A stretch of DNA of 32,000 nucleotides from Pyrodictium delaneyi (lineage in GTDB: Archaea > Thermoproteota > Thermoprotei_A > Sulfolobales > Pyrodictiaceae): NCBI RefSeq assembly GCF_001412615.1, contig NZ_CP013011.1, forward strand, positions 1,440,001 to 1,472,000, read 5' to 3'. This document shows, piece by piece, positions 5,758 to 17,685 of the stretch (positions are counted from its first letter, which is position 1; every line of letters starts with the position of its first letter). Made by a program: the position numbers and the translations under genes. A model generated the notes under the pieces. That model was not told the origin of the DNA. It worked only from the letters and a program-made list of their open reading frames with translations, and searched no databases.

Positions 5758-6670
5758 TAAGTTTCACCTCCTTACGTGCCTCATGCACGTAGTAAAGATA
5801 GACGTCTTCGAACCCCACGGGTTCTACCGTAGCAGATTCTGCCTCAGCATCTTCTGCTATTGCATGAGCCTCGCTACGGGACGAAGCATACGCTATCAAT
5901 GTGTCACCTACGCGTATAATCTTGGCCGCAAGGCCCTGGGGGTCACGGCGTGGCCGGCGGAGCACGACACGGTAGCGGTAGGGCAGCGCCCCTCGGAGCC
6001 TCCTAGGACTCCCCTCCGCCACCACCCGCCCCTTCGATATAAAGACTGCATGGTCGGCTAACATCTCCGCCTCCCTCATATCATGGGTGGTAAATACTAT
6101 GCATCGTCCCTCGGCTGCTGCGCCCCGGACAGCATCCCATACACCATACCGGCTCTCCACGTCCAGCCCCGTGGTGGGTTCGTCAAGGAACACCACCTCA
6201 GCCTCTGTCGCCAGGGCCATGGCAGTCACTGTTTTCCTCTTCTGGCCGCCGCTCAGCCCCCAGCCACTACGGTTCCGTATTTCCCAAAGCCCTAGCTGTT
6301 TGAGCACCTCGCGAGCACGTCTCTCAGCATCACGTATACTCCAGCCTCGGGCTACGAGATACCACTTCACGGCCTCTAGTGGAGTCCAGTTGAGGTCTAT
6401 ACGGGCCTCCTGTGGCACAAGCGCTATGCGGCGTCGGACCTCCCGGGCCTCCCTGACAATGTCGAAACCCGCTACGAAGCCGCGGCCACGGCTGGGCTTG
6501 AGTATGGTAGATACCATCCCTATGGTTGTGGTCTTCCCGGCCCCGTTGGGTCCGAGAAGTACTGTCACACGACCCCAGGGTGAGGAGAAGCTCACGTCGA
6601 CCGCGCCCCAGACGCCCCCTGGGTACCTCTTAGCCAGGCCCTCCGCTACCACTGCATAGCTGCTAGGCAT
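5747..6670 (-). CDS. ABC transporter ATP-binding protein (ABC-2/CcmA-like exporter)
   Basis: Walker A GPNGAGKTT, signature LSGGQKRK, Walker B VVFLDEPTTGLD and H-loop TTHDM. Confidence 0.9.
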   Translation of the reverse strand: MPSSYAVVAEGLAKRYPGGVWGAVDVSFSSPWGRVTVLLGPNGAGKTTTIGMVSTILKPSRGRGFVAGFDIVREAREVRRRIALVPQEARIDLNWTPLEAVKWYLVARGWSIRDAERRAREVLKQLGLWEIRNRSGWGLSGGQKRKTVTAMALATEAEVVFLDEPTTGLDVESRYGVWDAVRGAAAEGRCIVFTTHDMREAEMLADHAVFISKGRVVAEGSPRRLRGALPYRYRVVLRRPRRDPQGLAAKIIRVGDTLIAYASSRSEAHAIAEDAEAESATVEPVGFEDVYLYYVHEARKEVKLNEQ

Positions 6671-6992: not shown

Positions 6993-7325
6993 GTGGGCGG
7001 CGAGATGGTTCGCGCGTACCTCCGCATCTATGGGCTTGTACAAGGCGTGTTCTTCCGGGCCACTATGAGGGACGTGGCGCGCCGGCTCGGAGTAACGGGC
7101 TGGGTGCGCAATATGCCGGATGGCAGCGTGGAGGCCGTCGTTGAGGGACCCCGGGAGGCAGTCGAGAAGGTCATACAGTGGGCGCACCGCGGACCCCCGG
7201 CCGCTCGGGTGGAGCGTGTAGAGGTCATCTGGGAGCCCTACCGGGGCGAGTTCCGGGACTTCACTATACGTTACGACCTAGAACCCTACACACCGAGGCC
7301 CATCAAGCAGAGCGGGGAAGGCTAG
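6993..7325 (+). CDS. acyP: Acylphosphatase
   Basis: [40 protein letters not shown] is the classic acylphosphatase signature. The GTG start at 6993 is preceded by the SD-like GAGGTGA at 6980-6986; an ATG at 7005 is an alternative. There is a ~20-aa C-terminal extension. Confidence 0.9.
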
Positions 7326-8506
7326 AGACCACGGCTGGCAGCTAACGCGACTGTCTCCACTATCTCCTCCACATCACTCCTCGTATGACACCACTTCGCC
7401 ACGTACCTCAGTACACCGGGTAGCCGGGAGGGATAGAGTATCCAGCCCTGCCTCCTCAGTGCCTCTGCCACGCTGTCCGCCCTACGCCCCACGTTGAAGG
7501 CTACGAGGGGCGTCGAGGGCCCACCCTGGACCGGGATCCCGGCTGCGCGTAGCCCCTCCGCCACGCGTTCTGCTAGTTCGTAGAGGTGCTGGGCTAGCTT
7601 CTCTACGCCGTCTTGCCCAAGTGCTTCTAGCGCCGCCACCGCGGCAGCGAGCCCGGCTGCTGTACGGGTCCATGGCAGGCCCTGTTGCCTCCCGGAGGGC
7701 ATGTAGGGCGCCTGGTACTCCACTACGTCGAGGAGTTCCGGCGTGTTTGCGAGGAGGACACCGCTAGGTGGCGGTGTTATGTGCTTGTGGAAGTCTATCC
7801 CCACGAGGGCTGGACCACTCCTCGGGAGGATCATGCCCCGAGCCGCTGGGCGGCCTAGAAGGGGGAACCCGCCCCACGCCGCGTCCACGTATAGTACTGC
7901 ACCGCTCTCCCACGCCGCCTCGGCAGCCTCCAGGATTGGGTCAATGGCCCCGTTGTCGGTTACTCCTAGCGTTACAACTACTACTGCTACGCGGCCCTGA
8001 TGGGCACGGAGAAGCCTGCGGAGCGAATCCACGTCCAGGCGGAGGTCGTAGTCCACGGGGGCCTCTATGAGCCTCATGCCGAGTATCCTAGCAGCCTTGG
8101 CTATGCTCGCGTGGGCTGCGCGGCTAGCCATTACGATGTTTCGGCCTGTTGCCTCCCTAGCTATGTAGAGCCCCGTCAAGGCGGATTCACTGCCGCCGCT
8201 CGTGGGCAGCATGCCTAGCTCTGGGCCTAGCAACTCCTCTAGAAGCCGGCGTAACCGCTTCATTAATGTCTCGACACTGTACCACGTCGTGGGGTCGTTG
8301 AGATTCACTCTAGCGTATAGCGTGTAGGCCTCGAGCGCTACGGGGAGGGGTTCAGCCGTCATTCCTCCCGCAACACGGCATGGTGGTGGATCTTCGTCTC
8401 TCAGCCTCTGTAGGTCTTCGAGTATCTTCTCCGCCCTCGCCGGGTCCAGCAACCAGTCGACCCTGTTGCGCAAGCCTAGGTCATGCCCCCGATGCCCGGC
8501 CAACAT
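7322..8506 (-). CDS. Group II PLP-dependent decarboxylase (MfnA-like tyrosine/aspartate/glutamate decarboxylase)
   Basis: [17 protein letters not shown] and [16 protein letters not shown] (PLP-lysine D-x-HK motif) resemble archaeal MfnA-type decarboxylases. Its stop overlaps the acyP stop (CTAG). Confidence 0.8.
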
Positions 8507-8519
8507 GGTCCGCCCAGCG

Positions 8520-8527
8520 TAAATAGA
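8520..8527 (+). promoter_or_regulatory. Candidate TATA-like element (TAAATAGA) in the divergent intergenic region
   Basis: It is the only A/T-rich octamer in the 130-bp region between 8506 and 8637. Confidence 0.3.
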
Positions 8528-8610
8528 TCTGGTATGCGCCTCTGGGGTGCTACCCGGGTAGTACGAGCCCGGCGGCCCGGCGCGGTGGGTGTGGCTGTAT
8601 GAGTGTTACC

Positions 8611-8631
8611 GTGCCCCCTACTAGGGGGCAC
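8611..8631 (+). promoter_or_regulatory. Perfect 9-bp GC-rich hairpin/palindrome 5 nt upstream of the ATG of the giant ORF
   Basis: GTGCCCCCT-ACT-AGGGGGCAC. A second 12-nt perfect palindrome, CTACCCGGGTAG, lies at 8550-8561. Confidence 0.5.
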
Positions 8632-8636
8632 CCACT

Positions 8637-11600
8637 ATGCCGCCAGAGACTAGGCCACGTTGTGGGCCACCGCCTAGCCGTCTCCCGAGCCTGACTGGTA
8701 CTGACGCCCGGCTCCTTGACGAGTACCTGCCGCCGTTGCCTAGTAGGCAGAGGGTCTACCAGCAAGTCGCCGAAGCGCTCAACGAGATGGAGAAGAGCCA
8801 GGACCCGGTGCTAGTGCTCCTCGTGGCCGAGTGGGGCGAGGGGAAGACGAGCATCTACAATGCGCGGGTGAAGCCCTGGCTGGAGGAGAGGGGCTGGAGG
8901 AGCCTAGAAGCCCGCGCTGCCACGGTAATGGCTCATCTCGCCTCGCTGAGGAGCCGTAGCGAGCGCGACCCAGCGTACCGGCTTATGGCCGCGCTGCTCG
9001 CCGCCGGACTCGAGCAGGAGGGCATGCTGGCAGAGCACGGGGCTCCCGATGCTGCTGGGAGCCTCCGGGAATACGTGGATCGTGTCCTCCGCAGCCTCGT
9101 TCCCCGTGGTGGGAAGCTGATAGTCTTCATCGACGAGCTGGAGGACCTCGTGGCCTCGGCCCGGGAGGAGGAGCTAGCAGAGCTAGTCGCCGGGCTCGTT
9201 GGGATACTCAATGGGGACGTCGAGACCGTCTCTGCCCAGTGCCGTGGAGAGGGCTGCATGCCCGGCTCCTTCCATATAGTGGCTAGCCTCACGCCGCCGG
9301 CCTACAGCAGGCTCATGGGTCTCCGCGACTTCGCCACCGTGGCAGCGAGGCTGCGGAGGAGGATACGCAGCGTCTGGATACAGCCACTACCCCGCCGTGA
9401 GGCTTTCGCCTTCCTCGAGAGCCTCGCCCGCTACACGCTCGGCCGGGGGCTCGACGGGCTACTCGAAGACCATAGCCTCGCCCACGCCGTGGTCTCTGGC
9501 ACCCTGGGGAACATGGGGGCGCTCGTCTCGGCGTTCAGGTACCTCGTCTCCTGGGCCCGCGGCCGTGGAGGCTGCGGCGACGGCGTAGCAGTGCTCTCGA
9601 CTGGCGATCTACTCGAGGCATTGCAGGGACTCACTCTGAGCGTTGGGGGCGCCGAGCTGCCAGCCCTCAACAGCGAGGCCTACGCACGGCTAGCCGAGGG
9701 CTGGGGGGCGCGGGCCCGGCTAGCAGGCTTCGACACTGCCGCCGCCCGGAGGCTGCTAGACGAGCTAGTCGCGCGGGGCACTGTCCCTGTCGAGGAGCTG
9801 GCCGTAGCCATTGGGACCCGACTGAGCGTCGTGGCCGAGATGGTGCAAGAGCTCAACGTGTACGGTGAGCAGTCATGGCCGCGCCGGGAGCTAGGCGTAC
9901 AGAGGCTCGTCCATGAGGTCGTGGAGGCTCCAGCAGTCGAAGACGCGTTCAAGCTGCTAAGGGCCGTGGAGCCGGAGGCTGTTAAGCTCCTCCCCCAGCT
10001 GGCTGGAAGGGAGGAGCAGAAGCCGCTAGAGCAGCTACTCGACTCCCTCGTGTACCTCGACTCGGCTGGCCGGCTCGTAGTAGCGGTGCCCGCTGACGAG
10101 CGCATGGCAGCCGACCTAGTGGCGGACGCGTCGCCGCTAGAGCTGAGCCGCGCAGAGGCCGAGAGGCTCGCTGCGCTGCTGTGGGAGGGCATCTTCTCCA
10201 GGTTGCTGGGCTCCGGTGGTGCCCGGGCCTACATGCTCTCGCCGAGGCTCCAGCGTCTACTCTACGTGAGCCCCGAGCTGAGCTACCTAGACTTCATAGC
10301 TGACCGTGTCGAAAGGCTGCAAGTGATACGCCGCGTCTACACCGAGGCAGGCCGAGGCCACCTAGCAGTAGGTGTCTCAGCCCTCCTTGCTGCAGAGGGG
10401 CTGCTGGCAGAGCCGCCAGCACTGCAGGGCGAGGGCGTCGCACGCGCTGAGCTAGTCCTCCAGGGTGGTGCCCGGGCCAGAGTACTCGTCTATGCTGTGC
10501 CGGGCGAGGTAACCGCCGCGGAGGCCCGTAGACTAGAAAGCCAGGTCATGGCTGCACTCATGAGCGGGTGGCGGCCGCACGCGATACTACTAGTACACCA
10601 TGGCGGAGTGGAGCCGCAGGCAAGGCGGCTCCTAGACGCGCTGGAGGGCAAACTCTTCCTAAAGGTGGTAGAGGCCCCGATAGAGTCAATGGTGTCCCGT
10701 GCCCGGCTCCAGGCTCTGGGCGTCAAGCTCGCCGACGAGGCTGGCGGCGTAGAGGAGGCCCTCCGTGCCGCGGTCGAGGCGGCGAGGGACCCGGGGAGGG
10801 CCGAGGAGTTCGGCTTCGACCCGTTGAGGCTCCACTCGCTGCTACGGGAGCTGGCTGAGGAGATACGGCCCCGGGAGAGGCTGGAAAGAGCGCTAGAGGA
10901 GGGCATAGACGGCGCGCCACTAGTGGTGCGGGACCCCCGCCTAGGCTATGACGTGGAGAGGCCTACCGAGCTTAGCGGCGCACTCCGCTACTTCCTCGTA
11001 GTGCCTAGCACCCGTGCATCGGCTCGGGAAGCGCTCCACGCTGCCTACGAATACGTGATGCGGTATCATCTCTACCGGGGCCCCGGCGGCGAGGGCCGGG
11101 GCCTACTAAGCCCGGACATTGACCGCGGCGAGACACAGACCCTGGAGAAGTATATGCTTCTACTAGCCGCCAACGGGTTCCTCGAGAAGAGCAACGGCAC
11201 AGCGAGAATAGACACGTTGAGCCCTATGGAGCGTAGCGTGCTCCGGGCACTGGAGCAGCTCGGCGCCCGTAGCCAAGAGGTCCCCGCATCCAGGGTCTGG
11301 GAGCTGCTGGTAGTGGAAGCACGTAACCCGGGCACTCGGAGGATGCTGCTACAGGCGCTGGCCCACCGCGGCCTCGTGTCCGCTGCCGCCTCGCGGAGGA
11401 TAGACCCGGAGCGCTCCCGGCTAAGGCTACGTGACGGCGAGGAAGCCGCCTGGCAGCTAATACGCGAGGCCCGGGCCATTGTAGAGGAGATCGAGAACGA
11501 CCCCGAGGCAGCCTCCTGGGGCTATGTGGTCTCCGCTAAGGCCCGCGACTACCGCGCCGGCAGCCTAGAGGAGTTCACCCGGAAGATGTACAGCTTGCTA

Positions 11601-13067
11601 GACACAGCCGAGGAGGCCCTAAAGGCTGGCAATACACTGATGGCGCTGAGGCTTGCCCGCACAGTGCTAGACACCGCGGAGTACGTCAGGGACGAGGTCC
11701 TCCGGGGACACGTGAAGCCCGCCGCCGCCGAGGCCAGGAGGTTACGGAGCCTCCTAGAGGACTATGCGGAGAGGATAGAGGAAGCGCGCCGGGCAGCCGA
11801 AAGGATGCTCGAACAGCTGACCGGTAGCCGTGTACAGCTAGAGGTCGAGGGCTTTGAGAGGCTCCAGGAGGCCCTCCACGCGATAGAAGAGATCGAGGAG
11901 TTGCGGCTCAGCGAGAAGCAGCTAGAGGAGGAGGTGCAACAGCTCTGGGAGGAGGCCCGGCGCCGCCACCCCCGCGACCCAGGGCGCCACCTACCATTCT
12001 ACGTCGGTGGCACTGGCCCCGTGCTACACTTCAACTACAAGCTCTGGCTGCTGGCCAAGAGGCTTGAGGAGCTGGGGCTAGCACGGCTAGGCGAGTCTGG
12101 GCTCGAGGAGGGAGAGTGGCTACGCCGCACAATGCAGGCCCTGGAGACGCTGGTCAGCGAGGCCCGGAGGCTGCTAGAAGAGAGTGCTGAGCTACGCCGC
12201 CGCGCTGAGAGGCTAGCCGAGCGGCTGAGGAGGCTCGGCGTAGAGGCCCCCGCGCCGCAGAGCATCGTGCTGCAGGGGCTAAGCGCGCCCGAGAAGCTTG
12301 GCCTCGGCGAGGCCGAGCAGCTGCTCCAGGAGGCCCGGCGCCAGCTAGAGGAGGGGCGGCGCCCGCTACTGGAGCTCGAGGAGCAGGTGGACCGGCTCCT
12401 AGGCGAACTCGAGCAGCTGGAAGAGCTAGCCGCTGAGGCCGAGAGCTGGATACATGGGCTAGAAGAGGCGGCCGAGCGCGCCAGGGCAGCAGGGCTAGCT
12501 GCTAGCCAGAGGCTGCGCGAGGCCCTAGAGGACCTAGCACTGGCACTCGACCAGGCCCAGGCCATGAAGGGCAAGGCCCAGGCAGTGCTACAGCAGCCCG
12601 GCAGACTGCTAGACGCGCTCAGGGATGCCCGCAGCCTTGTCGAGAGCGCGCTCACCCTGCTACGCGACAGTCTAGAGAGGAGCAAGAGGATACACGCGGA
12701 CGCGGTAGCGGAGGCCGAGAGGCAGCGCCAGGCCCTAGAGGCCGAGGCCCAGGCGCTCCGCGAGGCGCTGGAGAGGACCGGGGCAAGGGCGCCACAGCCG
12801 CCACGCAGCAGCGACCCGTTCACCGCTATAGCTGGGCTCCACGAGTACATCGAGAAGCTGCGACGCATGGCGGCTGAGGCGGGGGTACTATCGCAGATGG
12901 AGATGGAGGCCTACCGGGTGGTGGCCCTTGAGCGTAGGAGGCGCGGCGAGCTGCTGCTACGAGAAGCAGCCGAGCTAGTAGCGGAGAGCCTCGGCATAGA
13001 CCTCGAGGAGGCTCGCCGTATACTCATAGCCCTCATCGAGAAGGAGATACTCGAGCCAAGGCTATAG
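8637..13067 (+). CDS. Very large P-loop NTPase (KAP/ORC-like AAA-type N-domain) with winged-helix-like segments and a long C-terminal coiled coil; function unknown
   Basis: Walker A VAEWGEGKTS (nt 8835-8852) and Walker B KLIVFIDELED (nt 9117-9146). An AAA-lid-like segment reads IRSVWIQPLPRREAFAFLESL. HTH-like segments include LLDELVARGTVPVEELAVAIG, SVLRALEQLGARSQEVPAS and the C-terminal LVAESLGIDLEEARRILIALIEK. Residues from about 950 to 1400 are E/R/L/A heptad-rich. Continuous codon-like coding runs over 4.4 kb. The true start could be downstream (in-frame TTG in PPLPS, or the ATG in NEMEKS). Confidence 0.8.
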   Translation: MPPETRPRCGPPPSRLPSLTGTDARLLDEYLPPLPSRQRVYQQVAEALNEMEKSQDPVLVLLVAEWGEGKTSIYNARVKPWLEERGWRSLEARAATVMAHLASLRSRSERDPAYRLMAALLAAGLEQEGMLAEHGAPDAAGSLREYVDRVLRSLVPRGGKLIVFIDELEDLVASAREEELAELVAGLVGILNGDVETVSAQCRGEGCMPGSFHIVASLTPPAYSRLMGLRDFATVAARLRRRIRSVWIQPLPRREAFAFLESLARYTLGRGLDGLLEDHSLAHAVVSGTLGNMGALVSAFRYLVSWARGRGGCGDGVAVLSTGDLLEALQGLTLSVGGAELPALNSEAYARLAEGWGARARLAGFDTAAARRLLDELVARGTVPVEELAVAIGTRLSVVAEMVQELNVYGEQSWPRRELGVQRLVHEVVEAPAVEDAFKLLRAVEPEAVKLLPQLAGREEQKPLEQLLDSLVYLDSAGRLVVAVPADERMAADLVADASPLELSRAEAERLAALLWEGIFSRLLGSGGARAYMLSPRLQRLLYVSPELSYLDFIADRVERLQVIRRVYTEAGRGHLAVGVSALLAAEGLLAEPPALQGEGVARAELVLQGGARARVLVYAVPGEVTAAEARRLESQVMAALMSGWRPHAILLVHHGGVEPQARRLLDALEGKLFLKVVEAPIESMVSRARLQALGVKLADEAGGVEEALRAAVEAARDPGRAEEFGFDPLRLHSLLRELAEEIRPRERLERALEEGIDGAPLVVRDPRLGYDVERPTELSGALRYFLVVPSTRASAREALHAAYEYVMRYHLYRGPGGEGRGLLSPDIDRGETQTLEKYMLLLAANGFLEKSNGTARIDTLSPMERSVLRALEQLGARSQEVPASRVWELLVVEARNPGTRRMLLQALAHRGLVSAAASRRIDPERSRLRLRDGEEAAWQLIREARAIVEEIENDPEAASWGYVVSAKARDYRAGSLEEFTRKMYSLLDTAEEALKAGNTLMALRLARTVLDTAEYVRDEVLRGHVKPAAAEARRLRSLLEDYAERIEEARRAAERMLEQLTGSRVQLEVEGFERLQEALHAIEEIEELRLSEKQLEEEVQQLWEEARRRHPRDPGRHLPFYVGGTGPVLHFNYKLWLLAKRLEELGLARLGESGLEEGEWLRRTMQALETLVSEARRLLEESAELRRRAERLAERLRRLGVEAPAPQSIVLQGLSAPEKLGLGEAEQLLQEARRQLEEGRRPLLELEEQVDRLLGELEQLEELAAEAESWIHGLEEAAERARAAGLAASQRLREALEDLALALDQAQAMKGKAQAVLQQPGRLLDALRDARSLVESALTLLRDSLERSKRIHADAVAEAERQRQALEAEAQALREALERTGARAPQPPRSSDPFTAIAGLHEYIEKLRRMAAEAGVLSQMEMEAYRVVALERRRRGELLLREAAELVAESLGIDLEEARRILIALIEKEILEPRL

Positions 13068-13110
13068 CCAAGCCCTAAGCCACAGCAGTCTCCCACGGTT
13101 CTTACGATCC

Positions 13111-13125
13111 CTCGGGTTTTCTCGC
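13111..13125 (+). terminator. Possible oligo-T terminator after the giant ORF
   Basis: CTCGGGTTTTCTCGC lies about 45 nt after the stop at 13067. Confidence 0.3.
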
Positions 13126-13347
13126 CCCAGCTCCGGGAGCCTAGTCTCCTGGTCTTACACTGCAGCCCCGCGTCCACTAGCCGTGCTGGCCTAGAGGCAC
13201 GGGGAGCGAGTAGATTCGGCCATGTGTAGCTAAGGCTATAGATTAGTGTCCGGGTTCCTGTGGTACCAGGGTGTGTCTCTACCCGTGTTCTCCGGCTCAG
13301 AGGCAGCCAGCAGCCAAGGAGCCTGGTAGACTGGGGCCTGGATAGTA

Positions 13348-14046
13348 TTGCGGGGTAGCCGTAGGCTTGACGAGTATCTGCGTGAGCTCGGCAGCGCTGT
13401 AAGGAACAGACAGGTGGATGTAGAGGCACTCGTGCGACGCATAGTCGAGGAGGCTGTACGGGAGGCCGGCTGCAGCACAGTCGCTTCTCCGGATCCTGGC
13501 CTCCTGGAGAGGCTAGAGCGTATCGAGCAGCGGCTAGAGAATATTGAGAAGAGGCTTGAGCGGCTAGAGCGCCAGGGCAGCGGGGGCTTCTCGAGGAGGG
13601 ATATCGAGGAGCTCGCCCGAGCTATAGCATCCGCCGTAGCTGCTGCCGTCAAGCCCCCAGGAGCCCAGCAGAGCCGGAGAGACGAGCCACGCTGGCTACG
13701 CGCCGTCGTGGAGCGGCTCCGGGGCCGTGGCTATGTTGTTCTCCGCGAGCTTCCGCCGGAGATCCGGGAGGGCTTCGACCCCGAGGATGCCCGGAGACGC
13801 GGCCTAGTAGTAGCCAGTATCGGGGGCGAGACCGTCGTATTCACCAGGCAAGGGCTCCGTGACTTCTTGGAGCGGCTCCGGGGGCTTCGTGCGAGCGACG
13901 AGTATGAGGCAGAGGCTCAGCTGGGCCGGTACAAGCTGCTATTCCGCCTCCTCCGGGAGGAGGGCCTCGTCTACTACGCTGGGCCGGGTCGCGGCTGGGT
14001 GCTCCAAGGCCAGCTAGAGAGACTAGCCCATGAGGAGCTTGTATAG
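13348..14046 (+). CDS. Hypothetical coiled-coil protein (possible partner of the giant NTPase)
   Basis: A 232-aa ORF with no internal Met codon, so it must start at TTG 13348 or GTG 13414. It carries the perfect heptad stretch LLERLERIEQRLENIEKRLERLERQ. The C-terminal half (RGYVVLRELPPEI...VVFTRQGLRDFLERL) looks globular. Confidence 0.55.
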   Translation: MRGSRRLDEYLRELGSAVRNRQVDVEALVRRIVEEAVREAGCSTVASPDPGLLERLERIEQRLENIEKRLERLERQGSGGFSRRDIEELARAIASAVAAAVKPPGAQQSRRDEPRWLRAVVERLRGRGYVVLRELPPEIREGFDPEDARRRGLVVASIGGETVVFTRQGLRDFLERLRGLRASDEYEAEAQLGRYKLLFRLLREEGLVYYAGPGRGWVLQGQLERLAHEELV

Positions 14047-14553: not shown

Positions 14554-15041
14554 ACCCAGAACACCCTGGCCCTATCCGCTCCGCAGACTAGATAGAGGTT
14601 AGCACGCTAGCAGGCATTAGCTGCAACATAATCATCACATGCTCCCGCACCGATTATCTAACGACAGGAAGAATAGAATTTTAGGGTGAACGAGCAACTA
14701 ACCCCCGCTCCCAGTGACTAGTTATGTTGCTTCGAATCCCGATTCACAATCCTTGACACCGGGCAGCTAAACGGCCGAAAGCAATAGAGCATGCCAGTAT
14801 CACAAACCCCTCTATGACGCGAGTCAATCCACTGTCCTAGCAATTACTGTGCTGGTTACACTGTCATACCCTACCATTTACAATTCAACTCCCTAAGGCT
14901 AATACGCGGGGACAGGGCAGCATACCAACCCGATGTACTAGCTACACTCTGCTACCTGACACACAAATCTATTTATCATTATTTATAACTTGGATAGCCG
15001 AATGTCGTATATACCTGGAACGCTAAACTATATTGAATACC

Positions 15042-15056
15042 TATATATATATATAT
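15042..15056. repeat. (TA)7.5 microsatellite; also the probable TATA region of the 15100 gene
   Basis: TATATATATATATAT lies 44 nt upstream of GTG 15100. The SD-like GGGGTGAT at 15084-15091 lies between them. Confidence 0.7.
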
Positions 15057-15099
15057 CAACATCATGTATAGTTCACCCGCGCCGGGGTGATACAGCCTG

Positions 15100-16719
15100 G
15101 TGCTCCTACACGGCTCAAAAACTGCAGCAATGCTAACTATAGCACTGATACTAGCCGCGTCATCAACTATGCTTGTAAAGCATTACACTACAGCAACCAT
15201 CTACGAGGATAGGTCTACTATTGTTACGGCAACTCGGCCTCTGATATCGAGAGGCCCACCGGTACTAACGATAGAGGTTAGCGACCAACAAGGAAGACCA
15301 GTAGACTTCTACGCTACGATAAGCATGCCTGCTGCCAACGGCAGTCTCATACACAGTAAGCCAGTGCGCGGTCATGGTCAAGCCACGATAGAGCTAACGA
15401 AGTACGCCGAGGAGCTATCAAGGCTGTTAGACTCGATAAACGCGGCAGGCAAACGGCTCCAAAAGATAGGGATACTAGTACTCCTAACCAGTGTAGAGAT
15501 AGAGAACGGCAAACCAGTAGTAGTCACCGATGCGTTTACCGTACCCATTAGCCTAGACGTGTTGAAGCCAGGCTACCATATAAAGGCAGTACACAAGTTC
15601 ACCCCCAAGGCCAAGACTGAGGCTAAGCAGGCGAAGCCACAGATACAGCTAGCAGCACCAAAACTAGACCTAGCCACGAGCCCCGTAGAGCCCACAGTCA
15701 ACGGACCATGCGTAGACTACGGCTTTAGCGTCACATGCTACTACTGGGAGCTAGACCAGATAGTATACCCTCCAAGCGGCGTAGACAACACCGTAAACAT
15801 GCCCTTCACAATAGTTGATGTAGCCCCAAGCAACGGCATCGACTCGCCAGCACAGAAGACAGAATCTGTGATAGTAAGTAACGTTATACGACTCCAGCTA
15901 TACACTATAGAAGAAGTAGAGATAGGGCTAGTAGTGGACTTCACACTGCTAGGCGGGTCTGTCACGATACCAGGACCAGCATTCGTAGACAGTATAAGAA
16001 ACTATGATACCTCCATCAAGACACTCCTAGACGTACAGTGTACATTCCTGAATACCCTCAACAGCCTGCCTGGGTCAAAGTGCACGCTGAATGGTATCGA
16101 TGCAGCTATCCCCGACTACTATTATGCAGCATACCTGGCTACTGGTGCTGAGGGTAGGCTATGGGTAGCAAAATATAACCTTATAGCTGAGACCTGCGAC
16201 CTGGACGGCATTTGCTACACTGAGAGTATTGGTAGCAACTATGCAGCATACTTTATACCCATCTACAATATCTTCGGGTACTTCGAACCCTACGTGGAGG
16301 TACAGGACGATTACTACAACTATGGTGGCTACCTCTACCGTGTGCTCGACGACTTAAGAAGCAAAATGGAAACAGCCACTATACTGAGCGGATACTATAA
16401 CGATAGACAATTCAACTACTATAGTGTAATCGTTGACGTGAATGGAGAGACGTACATGTCGGTATCTCTCCCCGTAGGCTCCGTAGCGGCTATAGTCTCG
16501 GGACTCAACCTGCCAATGGCTGCTACAACACTCAGCTTTACAGTAACATCTAGCGTGTACTACATTACCGCGTATGAAAGCCTATCGACTGTAACTATAG
16601 ATATAGATACGTCGGTATACCCAGGTATGCAGTATAGCAGTGAAGTCCTGAAGACCGATATGATGGTTGTACCAGATAACGGCGTCTTCACAATCCCGTT
16701 GATGGCCTTAAGACCGTGA
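15100..16719 (+). CDS. Secreted or membrane-anchored hypothetical protein (orphan, Tyr/Asn/Thr-rich)
   Basis: N-terminal hydrophobic anchor AAMLTIALILAASSTMLV. Three closely spaced Cys pairs (CVDYGFSVTC, CTFLNTLNSLPGSKC, CDLDGIC) suggest extracellular disulfides. GC is lower than the flanks. I recognise no family. Confidence 0.65.
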   Translation: MLLHGSKTAAMLTIALILAASSTMLVKHYTTATIYEDRSTIVTATRPLISRGPPVLTIEVSDQQGRPVDFYATISMPAANGSLIHSKPVRGHGQATIELTKYAEELSRLLDSINAAGKRLQKIGILVLLTSVEIENGKPVVVTDAFTVPISLDVLKPGYHIKAVHKFTPKAKTEAKQAKPQIQLAAPKLDLATSPVEPTVNGPCVDYGFSVTCYYWELDQIVYPPSGVDNTVNMPFTIVDVAPSNGIDSPAQKTESVIVSNVIRLQLYTIEEVEIGLVVDFTLLGGSVTIPGPAFVDSIRNYDTSIKTLLDVQCTFLNTLNSLPGSKCTLNGIDAAIPDYYYAAYLATGAEGRLWVAKYNLIAETCDLDGICYTESIGSNYAAYFIPIYNIFGYFEPYVEVQDDYYNYGGYLYRVLDDLRSKMETATILSGYYNDRQFNYYSVIVDVNGETYMSVSLPVGSVAAIVSGLNLPMAATTLSFTVTSSVYYITAYESLSTVTIDIDTSVYPGMQYSSEVLKTDMMVVPDNGVFTIPLMALRP

Positions 16720-16948
16720 CAAGAATAACTTGCTTACACAAAGACATGGCCATCGATGGTACCTAGAACGTAGATGCATACTCTCTTTTTCGCAGCTGTA
16801 TTCCCCGTAAGCCGTTTTGCTTGATGGATAGCTGCCGCGCAGTGAAAGACCGGGCTTATGGCTAGCTAGCCCTATTATCCTGTGCCCATGTTGGAGGACT
16901 GACAAGGATTAATAATATTTAGGCTAATGTGTTAAGCCATTAGTGTGA

Positions 16949-17560
16949 ATGCCTACATGCTCTGAGAGATGTGGCCCCAAGCACCAGCTTAGCGGAGGGT
17001 TGGGTACGATCTTGTCTAGTAGAGTTGTCCTAGTACCGTTCCACCTGGCCAGGCTTGGTAAGAGGATAGTGGGCCTAGACGCGTTCTTCTGGCCAAGCCT
17101 AGAGAAGAGGTACCGGGTAGTTCTCCTAGTACACCCTGCTGAGAGGCTAGGAGAAGCTGCCATAGAAGGCTGTCAACTCCCTGCACAAGTGGATATAGGA
17201 AGTCAAATCGGCGAGATACGGGAAATCGCGCAACGTAAGCCAGAGGGACCTCGGGCACCACGTGCTACTATGCGGCGGAGGTTTGCCTGGTTCCTGTTGC
17301 CACTCAACATGCTCCGCGATATGCTGCGCAGCGAAGCCGAGGAGTTCCAGTTATCGGAGGAGCTGCAAGCTGTGGGCCTTGCCAAGATTCTTAGAGAGTT
17401 GGAGCCTCTCGGGGAGACCCGTTACGCAGTCTTCGAGCCAGTGGAGGAGGATGGCGAGAAGCTGCTCTTACCCGTTGACGATCATATGAGGAGGATATAT
17501 CGGGAGCTAGCACGCCGCGACCAGGGCTATAGAAGGGCAGCAAGCCAGGCAGGATGCTAG
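16949..17560 (+). CDS. Hypothetical protein; only the C-terminal ~97 aa (from ATG 17270) look protein-like
   Basis: MRRRFAWFLLPLNMLRDMLRSEAEEFQLSEELQAVGLAKILRELEPLGETRYAVFEPVEEDGEKLL has ordinary composition. The upstream 107 codons are doubtful. No family recognised. Confidence 0.35.
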   Translation: MPTCSERCGPKHQLSGGLGTILSSRVVLVPFHLARLGKRIVGLDAFFWPSLEKRYRVVLLVHPAERLGEAAIEGCQLPAQVDIGSQIGEIREIAQRKPEGPRAPRATMRRRFAWFLLPLNMLRDMLRSEAEEFQLSEELQAVGLAKILRELEPLGETRYAVFEPVEEDGEKLLLPVDDHMRRIYRELARRDQGYRRAASQAGC

Positions 17561-17580
17561 ACGCATTAGCTTAGGGAGAA

Positions 17581-17685
17581 AGGCGGGTCGGCCAGCAGCC
17601 CCTAGTCGTCATGCCCTGGGGCCCGCAGCCCCCGGGGACCGGCTGCGGAGCCCCTCTGCTTTGCTACATCTCCCCATACCCGCCT
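17581..17685 (+). ncRNA. Candidate structured RNA element or 3' structure (extended GC-rich hairpin, ~105 nt)
   Basis: Nested helices: AGGCGGGT 17581-88 pairs with ACCCGCCT 17678-85; AGCAG 17594-98 pairs with CTGCT 17656-60; GGGGCCCGCAGCC 17618-30 pairs with GGCTGCGG-A-GCCCC 17641-54. It forms a GC-rich patch inside an AT-rich island. Confidence 0.3.

What the first reader, a model, noticed from the sequence alone, without database searches (positions are those of the whole stretch)
8520..8636. Two perfect palindromes in the short control region of the giant NTPase gene
CTACCCGGGTAG (8550-8561, a 12-nt perfect palindrome) lies about where a TSS would be expected from the TAAATAGA element at 8520-27. 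GTGCCCCCT-ACT-AGGGGGCAC (8611-8631, 9-bp arms) ends 5 nt before the ATG at 8637. Such dyads are typical operator sites for dimeric archaeal regulators. As RNA, the second would form a very stable hairpin that occludes the translation start. Either way the giant gene looks tightly regulated, which fits a conditionally deployed system.
Basis: seen in the sequence. Interest (0 to 1): 0.35.

Follow-up and report, generated by a model that had tools for sequence, protein, structure and literature searches.

The report
Conserved promoter boxes, one lineage-specific hairpin
Both palindromes are really there, but what is conserved upstream of this giant archaeal ATPase gene is a pair of GTGYTAC boxes exactly 56 bp apart: the first palindrome is the core of one box, and the second, stronger palindrome exists only in two sister Pyrodictium genomes and is probably not the main control element.

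Summary
Both dyads sit exactly where reported, in a 130-bp divergent intergenic region of a Pyrodictium genome. ATG 8637 is the true start: there is an in-frame TAG at 8622-24 and the N-terminus is conserved.

Dyad 1 (8550-61) is chance-level as a bare 12-mer. It is, however, the core of an 18-bp pseudo-palindrome, GTGCTACCCGGGTAGTAC (8547-64). This 'distal box' is conserved upstream of 15 orthologues, down to 43% protein identity.

A second GTGYTAC box (8603-09, inside GCTGTATGAGTGTTAC 8594-8609) lies 56-57 bp downstream in every orthologue and usually 32-34 nt before the start codon. GTGYTAC occurs 24 times in these upstream regions against 0.18 expected.

Dyad 2 (8611-31) has 10-bp arms and is the strongest dyad in the window. 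P. abyssi keeps it with one change; the other 13 orthologues lack it. RNAalifold finds no consensus structure. It looks like a lineage-specific perfecting of complementarity between a pyrimidine tract and a conserved SD-like G-run.

The TAAATAGA element is not conserved. No further copies of the dyads or boxes were found. The transcription start is unknown, so whether the hairpin is ever transcribed is open.

Modest interest.

The parts
8520..8527 (.). TAAATAGA (TCTATTTA on the minus strand), a TATA-like octamer. It is specific to this genome and more likely belongs to the divergent decarboxylase gene, if it is functional at all.
   Evidence: Sequence. P. abyssi has GTGGATGG at the aligned position. 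Other window promoters have canonical TATA boxes.
8547..8564 (+). Distal conserved box GTGCTAC-CCGG-GTAGTAC: an A unit GTGYTAC plus a B unit GTwnYAC, forming an 18-bp pseudo-palindrome.
   Evidence: I6. Conserved at about -90 in 15 orthologues. The pattern GTGYTACNNNNGTNNNAC occurs in the fetched loci only at this position.
8594..8609 (+). Proximal conserved box GCTGTATGAGTGTTAC: a TGTAT TATA-like C unit at 8596-8602 plus a GTGTTAC D unit at 8603-8609.
   Evidence: Identical in the window, L001 and L002, and GCTGTAkGrGTGTTAC in most orthologues. The D unit lies 32-34 nt before the start in 12 of 15 and 56-57 nt after the A unit in 15 of 15.
8611..8631 (+). Dyad 2, GTGCCCCCTA-C-TAGGGGGCAC. The left arm is the pyrimidine tract and the right arm contains the SD-like AGGGGG (8623-8628). 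It is lineage-specific.
   Evidence: P. abyssi has one C>T change. Absent from the other orthologues.
8622..8628 (+). T(A/T)GGGG G-run, 9-15 nt before the start codon. It is conserved in 14 of 15 orthologues and is either SD-like or the initiator region.
   Evidence: table. The SD motifs of other window genes (GGAGGTGA, GGGTGA) lie at the same distance from their starts.
8637..13067 (+). Giant 1476-aa P-loop (Walker A GEGKTS) and coiled-coil protein. This is the controlled gene.
7322..8506 (-). Divergent PLP-dependent decarboxylase gene (MfnA-like). Its real start is possibly TTG 8473.
   Evidence: The P. abyssi homologue is called at 383 aa.
13348..14046 (+). Conserved downstream partner gene (about 230-280 aa, no family hit). 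It has its own canonical TATA (GCTATAGATTAG, 13235-13246) and no GTGYTAC boxes.

Best explanation
The spacer carries the gene-specific control region of the giant ATPase gene. Its functional core is not the two palindromes. It is a bipartite DNA architecture conserved across Pyrodictiaceae-like archaea:
- a distal 18-bp pseudo-palindromic box, GTGYTAC-N4-GTwnYAC, at 8547-8564;
- a proximal box, TGTAT-N1-2-GTGTTAC, at 8596-8609, held at a rigid 56-57 bp from the distal box and about 33 nt from the start codon;
- a pyrimidine tract followed by a T(A/T)GGGG run 9-15 nt before the start.

Inferred mechanism: the TGTAT and GTGTTAC elements form a weak, non-canonical core promoter. One sequence-specific factor, probably dimeric or oligomeric, reads the two GTGYTAC boxes and either represses or recruits TBP/TFB. 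Transcription most likely starts at or just before the G-run, giving a short SD-bearing leader.

Dyad 1 is the centre of the distal box, so it is real as part of a larger site. Dyad 2 is a young feature of the window/P. abyssi lineage. There, the conserved pyrimidine tract and the conserved G-run happen to have become perfectly complementary. It spans the likely initiation region and is probably not an independent regulatory element.

Shown: conservation, spacing, specificity and lack of RNA covariation. Inferred: protein binding, promoter assignment and TSS.
For: - GTGYTAC occurs 24 times on the + strand within -120..0 of 15 orthologous starts, against 0.18 expected from the rest of the same loci.
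- A-to-D spacing is 56 nt in 12 of 15 orthologues and 57 nt in 3 of 15. The D box lies at -32 to -34 in 12 of 15.
- The invariant alignment columns fall in the two boxes.
- A sequence-only model of the region hits only these upstream regions in 400 kb. It also finds a held-out orthologue at the expected place, E=1.8e-6.
- The boxes persist although the upstream neighbours differ: decarboxylase, acylphosphatase, AA kinase, MazE, CoA-binding and PIN genes. They therefore belong to the giant gene.
- RNAalifold predicts no consensus structure. The outer helix seen in the window fold is not kept in orthologues.
- Dyad 2 is absent from 13 of 15 orthologues.
- The G-run is conserved in 14 of 15 orthologues and lies where other window genes have GGAGGTGA-type SD motifs.
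- In other window promoters the TATA 3' end lies 25-26 nt upstream of the G-rich SD-like motif. Here TGTATGA ends 21-22 nt before the G-run.
Against: - There are no TSS or binding data, so the promoter assignment is geometric only.
- TGTATGA and GTGTTAC are poor TATA sequences, and even AT-rich relatives keep them rather than a canonical TATA. The boxes could therefore be pure operator or activator sites with the real TATA elsewhere. In L006, L067 and L068 the distal B unit reads GTATATAC or GTATTAC, which suggests a distal promoter and a leader of about 50 nt that would contain dyad 2.
- Independent strong hairpins covering the G-run also occur in L069 (-18.6 kcal/mol, different sequence) and L008 (-20.6). 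This hints at recurrent selection for SD pairing.
- The one change in P. abyssi (C>T) keeps RNA pairing as G.U.
- The boxes match no transcription-factor motif known to me, and the literature search found nothing.
Confidence: 0.5

Rival explanations
1. RNA reading. The mRNA starts upstream of 8611, for example from a distal promoter using the B unit at 8558-8565 as TATA, which gives a leader of about 50 nt. Dyad 2 then folds into a 9-bp G+C-rich hairpin that sequesters the SD-like AGGGGG 9-14 nt before the AUG. Translation of the giant ATPase is gated by temperature or by a helicase or other protein.
For: - Hairpin -18.2 kcal/mol, z=-3.85. It persists in an 86-nt context.
- The right arm contains the conserved SD-like G-run.
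- The P. abyssi change keeps pairing as G.U.
- Unrelated sequences form strong hairpins over the G-run in L069 and L008, and weak Y-tract:G-run pairings occur in L004, L067, L070, L072 and L073.
- Predicted dG falls to about 0 near 105 C in the window and near 97 C in P. abyssi.
- The distal B unit is TATA-like in AT-richer relatives.
Against: - No consensus structure or covariation in 15 orthologues.
- Only 4 of 15 sequences (3 independent lineages) have z<-2, against a background of 2 of 27 other genes in the window with z<-2.5. The enrichment is not significant.
- No hairpin at all in L002 (82% identity), L005, L068 or L071.
- The TSS is unknown. The geometry of other window promoters favours a start at the G-run, which would leave the left arm untranscribed.
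- The AUG itself is outside the stem.
- Energy parameters extrapolated to about 100 C are unreliable.
Confidence: 0.2
2. Dyad 2, and dyad 1 as a separate 12-mer, are operators for dimeric archaeal regulators. A repressor bound at 8611-8631 blocks RNA polymerase at the initiation region.
For: - Near-perfect 21-bp symmetry, the best in the window. P=0.0036 for such an arm length in this spacer.
- It lies between the proximal box and the start codon, where archaeal repressors typically act (established knowledge for Phr, LrpA, MDR1 and TrmB-type repressors).
- L069 has a Watson-Crick dyad, CTCCCC-N5-GGGGAG, at the same place.
Against: - The arms are not conserved in sequence beyond the sister species, whereas the flanking boxes are. 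A conserved regulator should keep its site.
- P. abyssi already breaks the DNA symmetry with a G:T change.
- No further copies with up to 3 mismatches in the window.
- No perfect or Y-variant copy in any Pyrodictiaceae genome of the genome collection: all 23 hits are in unrelated organisms (22 bacteria, one Methanobacteriota MAG), about the number expected by chance by my own estimate.
- The bare 12-mer dyad 1 is at chance level.
Confidence: 0.12
3. Dyad 2 has no function of its own. It is a chance palindrome in a G+C-rich spacer, helped by the juxtaposed C-rich and G-rich tracts.
For: - 23% of whole-window shuffles contain an arm of 10 nt or more.
- Not conserved.
- The pyrimidine tract and G-run are each conserved for their own reasons, so partial complementarity is built in.
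Against: - The position-specific probability is low, 0.36%.
- It is retained in P. abyssi with one pairing-compatible change, while the spacer overall has diverged by about 10%.
Confidence: 0.18

Closest known systems
Archaeal transcription-factor operators that overlap or flank the core promoter. From my own knowledge: Pyrococcus Phr and LrpA, Archaeoglobus MDR1, TrmB-family sites, the three regularly spaced Ss-LrpB boxes, and the Ptr2 upstream activating sites in Methanocaldococcus.
   Same: - Short pseudo-palindromic boxes with half-sites about one helical turn apart.
- Two sites at a fixed distance, close to or overlapping the TATA/TSS region.
- Gene-specific and conserved with the target gene.
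   Different: - The GTGYTAC motif matches none of the published consensus sequences that I know.
- The binding protein is unknown.
- A rigid 56-57 bp spacing is not a described feature of those systems.
- No binding or TSS data exist.
Canonical archaeal BRE/TATA core promoter
   Same: The proximal box sits 26-28 nt (its 3' end) before the start codon. That is where the TATA boxes of apparently leaderless window genes lie, for example TTTAAAGT before 29004. The TGTAT unit sits where a TATA for a short-leader transcript would be.
   Different: The sequence is not A+T-rich. It is conserved as a specific word even in relatives at 40-50% G+C. Other promoters in the same window use ordinary TTTATA or TATAAA boxes.
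SD-sequestering RNA hairpins and RNA thermometers of bacteria (ROSE, fourU)
   Same: A stable stem whose 3' arm contains the SD-like purine run just upstream of the AUG. Predicted melting is near the growth temperature.
   Different: No match to any Rfam family. No structural conservation among orthologues. It is not known whether the stem is transcribed. To my knowledge no such element is established in hyperthermophilic Thermoproteota.

Membership tests
Palindromic operator of a dimeric archaeal regulator | Dyad symmetry of the site | tested here: met
   Dyad 2 has 10-nt arms at 100% complementarity. The distal box has 9-nt arms at 89%.
Palindromic operator of a dimeric archaeal regulator | The site sequence is conserved upstream of orthologues | tested here: inconclusive
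   Met for the distal box that contains dyad 1: 15 of 15 orthologues have a GTGYTAC-like A unit, and TAC-N4-GTA is kept in about 10 of 15. Not met for dyad 2, which is found only in the window and P. abyssi.
Palindromic operator of a dimeric archaeal regulator | Further copies define a regulon | tested here: inconclusive
   No extra copies in the window or in about 400 kb of related loci. The genome-collection scan for dyad 2 gave only unrelated organisms (22 bacteria and one Methanobacteriota MAG) and did not even return the source genome or P. abyssi, so whole-genome uniqueness could not be established.
Palindromic operator of a dimeric archaeal regulator | Bound by a protein, with an effect on transcription | not testable with these tools
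   Needs EMSA or footprinting and in vitro transcription.
SD-occluding RNA hairpin / RNA thermometer | The stem contains the SD and/or start codon | tested here: met
   The 3' arm AGGGGGCAC includes the G-run at -14 to -9. The AUG lies 5 nt outside the stem.
SD-occluding RNA hairpin / RNA thermometer | The structure is conserved, with compensatory changes, among orthologues | tested here: not met
   RNAalifold predicts 0 pairs. Individually, only 4 of 15 sequences fold with z<-2. The background is 2 of 27 other genes.
SD-occluding RNA hairpin / RNA thermometer | The stem lies within the transcript (TSS upstream of it) | not testable with these tools
   No TSS data. The geometric arguments conflict.
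SD-occluding RNA hairpin / RNA thermometer | Melts within the physiological temperature range | tested here: inconclusive
   Predicted dG is -3.0 kcal/mol at 95 C and -0.4 at 105 C. These are extrapolated parameters with no correction for salt or polyamines.
Canonical archaeal TATA box for the giant gene (TAAATAGA 8520-27) | An A+T-rich octamer conserved at a fixed distance upstream of the gene | tested here: not met
   P. abyssi has GTGGATGG and L002 has no equivalent.
Known RNA families (Rfam) and C/D box sRNA | A match to a covariance model, or C (RUGAUGA) and D (CUGA) boxes | tested here: not met
   No Rfam hit up to E=10 in 8300-8800 and none at gathering score in the whole window. No UGAUGA or CUGA boxes in the spacer (read).

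The most novel reading that the evidence does not exclude
The 9-10-bp G+C-rich hairpin is a translational thermosensor working at around 100 C. It would keep the SD of the giant Orc1-like/coiled-coil ATPase mRNA closed below the growth optimum. The predicted dG reaches 0 near 105 C in this genome, and the single C>U change in P. abyssi lowers this to about 97 C. The hairpin would open only at optimal or heat-stress temperature. The conserved GTGYTAC boxes, 56 bp apart, would be an autoregulatory operator pair read by the ATPase's own winged-helix-like domains.
Probability: 0.07. Interest if true: 0.65.

Novelty: new member of a known kind. Interest (0 to 1): 0.3.

Why it matters
Cis-regulatory elements of hyperthermophilic Thermoproteota outside Sulfolobales are almost unmapped. 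A gene-specific pair of boxes with rigid spacing gives three things:
- a concrete bait for identifying a transcription factor;
- a handle on when an uncharacterized, widely conserved giant ATPase is expressed, a protein often paired with a NurA nuclease;
- a cautionary example that the most eye-catching palindrome in a promoter is not necessarily the conserved element.

If the hairpin were transcribed, it would be a rare candidate for RNA-based translational control near 100 C.

Tried and rejected
- **Conserved RNA structure over the whole leader.** RNAalifold gave 0 pairs. The outer helix that pairs GCUGUAUGAGUG with the AUG region is 12/12 pairs in the window but only 2-10/12 in orthologues, with no compensation.
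- **Upstream ORF.** An ORF starting at ATG 8599 is rejected because that ATG is absent in L004, L006, L067 and others.
- **C/D-box sRNA, suggested by the fixed 56-nt spacing.** No C or D boxes are present and there is no Rfam hit.
- **Alternative start at TTG 8736.** Rejected because residues 9-35 are conserved in 20 homologues and the substitutions against P. abyssi are synonymous.
- **TAAATAGA as the gene's TATA.** Not conserved.
- **GTGYTAC as a general promoter word.** Only chance numbers occur elsewhere.
- **Boxes upstream of the partner gene.** Not present. The partner has its own canonical TATA.
- **Boxes in distant homologues at 22-31% identity.** No enrichment.
- **Regulon search in public genomes with the dyad 2 pattern.** It returned only unrelated organisms (22 bacteria and one Methanobacteriota MAG), about the number I estimate by chance. 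It missed the source genome and P. abyssi, so it does not settle uniqueness.
- **Exact-sequence look-ups.** The window protein and the Hyperthermus protein are not on record.
- **Literature search** for Pyrodictium promoters, GTGTTAC, or the giant ATPase with NurA: nothing relevant.
- **Long-range 9-nt complementarity** between 8617-25 and 8739-47 (I5). The second site is constrained by the conserved PLPSR codons and the match is weakened in P. abyssi, so it is treated as coincidence.

Full report
**1. Observation.**
The sequence at 8520-8640 reads exactly as reported:
- TAAATAGA at 8520-27;
- CTACCCGGGTAG at 8550-61;
- GTGCCCCCT-ACT-AGGGGGCAC at 8611-31;
- ATG at 8637.

The repeat finder shows dyad 2 as 10-nt arms around one central base. 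It also shows that dyad 1 extends to 9-nt arms at 89% complementarity: GTGCTACCC/GGGTAGTAC, 8547-8564.

The 130-bp spacer (8507-8636) is divergent. A PLP-dependent decarboxylase gene runs leftward from 8506 and the 1476-aa P-loop gene runs rightward from 8637.

**2. Chance.**
- Twelve-nt perfect palindromes are as frequent as in shuffles: 13 observed against 11.4 expected, and P=0.076 within the spacer.
- The 18-nt form of dyad 1 is also unremarkable window-wide: 4 observed against 4.3 expected, and P=0.022 for the spacer.
- Dyad 2 is the best dyad in the window. An arm of that length appears in 23% of whole-window shuffles but in only 0.36% of spacer shuffles.
- As RNA, dyad 2 folds at -18.2 kcal/mol with z=-3.85.
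- Two of 27 other genes in the window also have a z<-2.5 hairpin in the -34..+3 segment. Such hairpins are not exceptional in this genome.

**3. Start codon.**
TAG at 8622-24 is in frame, so 8637 is the first possible start. The only plausible alternative is TTG 8736. It is excluded because residues 9-35 (C9, L16, P17, S18, G21, D23, A24, L27, P32, L34, P35) are conserved in 20 homologues down to 42% identity. In addition, the differences between the window and P. abyssi in this stretch are synonymous or in-frame.

**4. Organism and gene.**
- The protein is 92% identical to a Pyrodictium abyssi protein and 65% identical to one from Hyperthermus butylicus.
- It has only sub-threshold similarity to KAP NTPase, to the Orc1/Cdc6 AAA+ domain and to SMC coiled coil.
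- It has no PADLOC hit and no relative in the PDB.
- Relatives at 22-31% identity are widespread in hot-environment metagenomes.
- A conserved gene of about 230-280 aa follows it. In L070 and L071 a NurA-domain gene is also present, directly after the giant gene in L071 and after the 284-aa gene in L070.
- The neighbourhood in the window is housekeeping: 2-oxoacid:ferredoxin oxidoreductase, ABC transporters, NUDIX and acylphosphatase genes.

**5. Comparative analysis of the upstream region.**
Fifteen orthologous upstream regions were collected: the window, L001, L002, L004-L008 and L067-L073.

- *Dyad 2.* P. abyssi has GTGCCTCCTACTAGGGGGCAC, with one C>T change. The element is already gone in L002 at 82% protein identity, where the sequence is TCATGCCTCTACACCCGGGTTTCGG. 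It is absent in all more distant orthologues.
- *TAAATAGA.* It is replaced by GTGGATGG in P. abyssi.
- *What is conserved: two blocks*.
  - The proximal block is GCTGTAkGrGTGTTAC (window 8594-8609). Its GTGYTAC word starts 32-34 nt before the start codon in 12 of 15 orthologues.
  - The distal block is GTGYTAC-YGGK-GTwnYAC (window 8547-8564). It lies 56 nt upstream in 12 of 15 orthologues and 57 nt upstream in 3 of 15, although the intervening sequence is free to vary.
- *Enrichment.* GTGYTAC occurs 24 times in the fifteen -120..0 segments against 0.18 expected from the rest of the same loci.
- *Specificity.*
  - The 18-nt distal pattern occurs in the fetched loci only at this position.
  - A sequence-only profile of the region hits nothing else in 400 kb.
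  - The same profile finds a held-out orthologue at the right place, E=1.8e-6.
  - The word is not a general promoter feature of the window.
  - It is absent from distant homologues.
- *Ownership.* The upstream neighbour differs between loci, so the boxes belong to the giant gene.
- *G-run.* A T(A/T)GGGG run 9-15 nt before the start is present in 14 of 15 orthologues. It lies where other window genes carry GGAGGTGA or GGGTGA Shine-Dalgarno-like motifs. Between the proximal box and this run most orthologues have a pyrimidine tract.

**6. RNA or DNA?**
- RNAalifold on the 15-sequence alignment predicts no pair at all.
- A longer helix in the window's own fold pairs the proximal block with the AUG region. 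It is not maintained in orthologues.
- Folded individually, strong hairpins over the G-run occur only in four sequences, which represent three independent lineages:
  - the window and P. abyssi, counted as one lineage;
  - L069, with a different sequence (CUUCUCCCC/GGGGGAGGAG, -18.6 kcal/mol);
  - L008 (-20.6 kcal/mol).
- Five other orthologues show weak 4-7-bp pairings rich in G.U. Four show none.
- Against the roughly 7% background, this recurrence is suggestive but not significant.
- The conserved blocks are therefore DNA-level signals, and the hairpin is at best a lineage-specific addition.

**7. Where does transcription start?**
This cannot be settled here.
- *Short-leader model.* Other promoters in the window have canonical TATA boxes. 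The TATA 3' end lies either about 26-28 nt before the ATG (leaderless geometry, 29004 and 16949) or about 40 nt before it. In the second case that is 25-26 nt before a G-rich SD-like motif (5747-, 1767+). By analogy, TGTATGA (8596-8602) as a weak TATA would place the start at about 8623-8627. That is at the T|AGGGGG junction in the middle of dyad 2, so the left arm would not be transcribed.
- *Distal-promoter model.* In the AT-richer relatives the distal B unit reads GTATATAC (L006, L067) or GTATTAC (L068). This suggests a distal TATA, a leader of about 50 nt and a transcribed hairpin.
- My estimates are about 0.55 for the proximal or short-leader models, 0.3 for the distal promoter and 0.1 for the TAAATAGA model.

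**8. Interpretation.**
- The best-supported account is a gene-specific, non-canonical promoter whose two GTGYTAC boxes are read by one sequence-specific factor.
- The distal box is an 18-bp pseudo-palindrome with half-sites 11 bp apart. This is what a dimeric winged-helix or HTH protein would use.
To that extent the 'operator' idea is right.
- Dyad 2 is best explained as complementarity between two independently conserved tracts (pyrimidine tract and G-run) that became perfect in one young lineage.
- The RNA-hairpin reading is not excluded. Predicted stability is -3.0 kcal/mol at 95 C and -0.4 at 105 C; for the P. abyssi variant it is -0.6 at 95 C and 0 at 105 C. These values lie near the growth temperatures reported for Pyrodictium species (my own knowledge). 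Extrapolated parameters are unreliable, and the species of the window is not known.

**9. Copies elsewhere.**
No further copy of dyad 2 (up to 3 mismatches), dyad 1 (above chance) or the proximal block exists in the window. A scan of the species-representative genome collection for GTGCCYCCTNNNAGGGGGCAC returned 23 sites, 22 in unrelated bacteria and one in a Methanobacteriota MAG. That is about the number I expect by chance (my own estimate). The scan returned neither the source genome nor P. abyssi. It therefore shows only that no other represented Pyrodictiaceae genome has a perfect copy. It does not prove uniqueness in the source genome.

**10. Verdict.**
- The region is a real and conserved control region, but its conserved elements are the two GTGYTAC boxes and the G-run, not the palindromes as such.
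- It is a new example of a familiar kind of thing, an archaeal promoter/operator architecture, upstream of an uncharacterized but widely conserved giant ATPase.
- Interest is modest (0.3). It would rise if the hairpin proved to be a transcribed thermosensor or if the boxes proved to be an autoregulatory site.

Noticed in passing
window 8637-14046; L070 4001-10192; L071 4001-10107; L009-L043: The giant P-loop/coiled-coil protein (about 1430-1500 aa) forms a family spread through hot-environment Thermoproteota metagenomes, with relatives at 22-31% identity. It is followed by a conserved gene of about 230-320 aa, and in L070 and L071 a NurA-domain nuclease gene lies just downstream. The family has no Pfam hit above cut-off, no PADLOC hit and no PDB relative. 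It looks like an uncharacterized ATPase-nuclease module.
   Followed up: partly
window 15001-17600: A low-G+C patch (47-49% against about 60% elsewhere) contains a (TA)7 run at 15042-15056. It carries two ORFs without any Pfam or NCBIfam hit (15100-16719, 16949-17560). The syntenic stretch of P. abyssi carries different genes. This may be a foreign insertion.
   Followed up: no
window 7322-8506 (minus strand): The decarboxylase ORF probably starts at TTG 8473 (383 aa, the length called in P. abyssi) rather than ATG 8506. TCTATTTA (8527-8520) lies only 14 nt from ATG 8506, too close for a TATA box.
   Followed up: partly
L002 398-850 and L003: In the lineage at 82% identity the decarboxylase gene is missing and the acylphosphatase gene directly precedes the giant gene on the same strand. 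The database gene call for that giant gene starts at GTG 799. By homology this is 16 codons too far upstream, because the conserved ATG is at 847.
   Followed up: partly
window 5758-5791 (minus strand) and 16915-16951: Two other genes have unusually stable hairpins just upstream of their start codons: z=-3.1 before the ABC-2 permease gene and z=-4.9 before ORF 16949.
   Followed up: no
window 8617-8625 and 8739-8747: CCTACTAGG at the centre of dyad 2 is perfectly complementary to CCTAGTAGG in codons 35-37 of the giant gene. In a long transcript this pairing would compete with the hairpin. It is weakened in P. abyssi (CCTAGCAGG).
   Followed up: partly
L001 2570-3237; L068 2677-3814; L070 3034-3730; L072 1831-2681: Toxin-antitoxin-type pairs lie just upstream of the giant gene in several orthologous loci: PIN with a small ORF, MazE-like, and HepT with a nucleotidyltransferase. 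None is present in the window.
   Followed up: no
L069 2090-3298: An Orc1/Cdc6 gene lies two genes upstream of the giant gene in this MAG. The giant protein itself has weak N-terminal similarity to Orc1/Cdc6.
   Followed up: no
window 8611-8631 versus L001 4976-4996: The single C>T difference lowers the predicted temperature at which the hairpin dG reaches 0 from about 105 C in the window to about 97 C in P. abyssi. This may be coincidence, and the thermodynamic parameters are extrapolated.
   Followed up: partly
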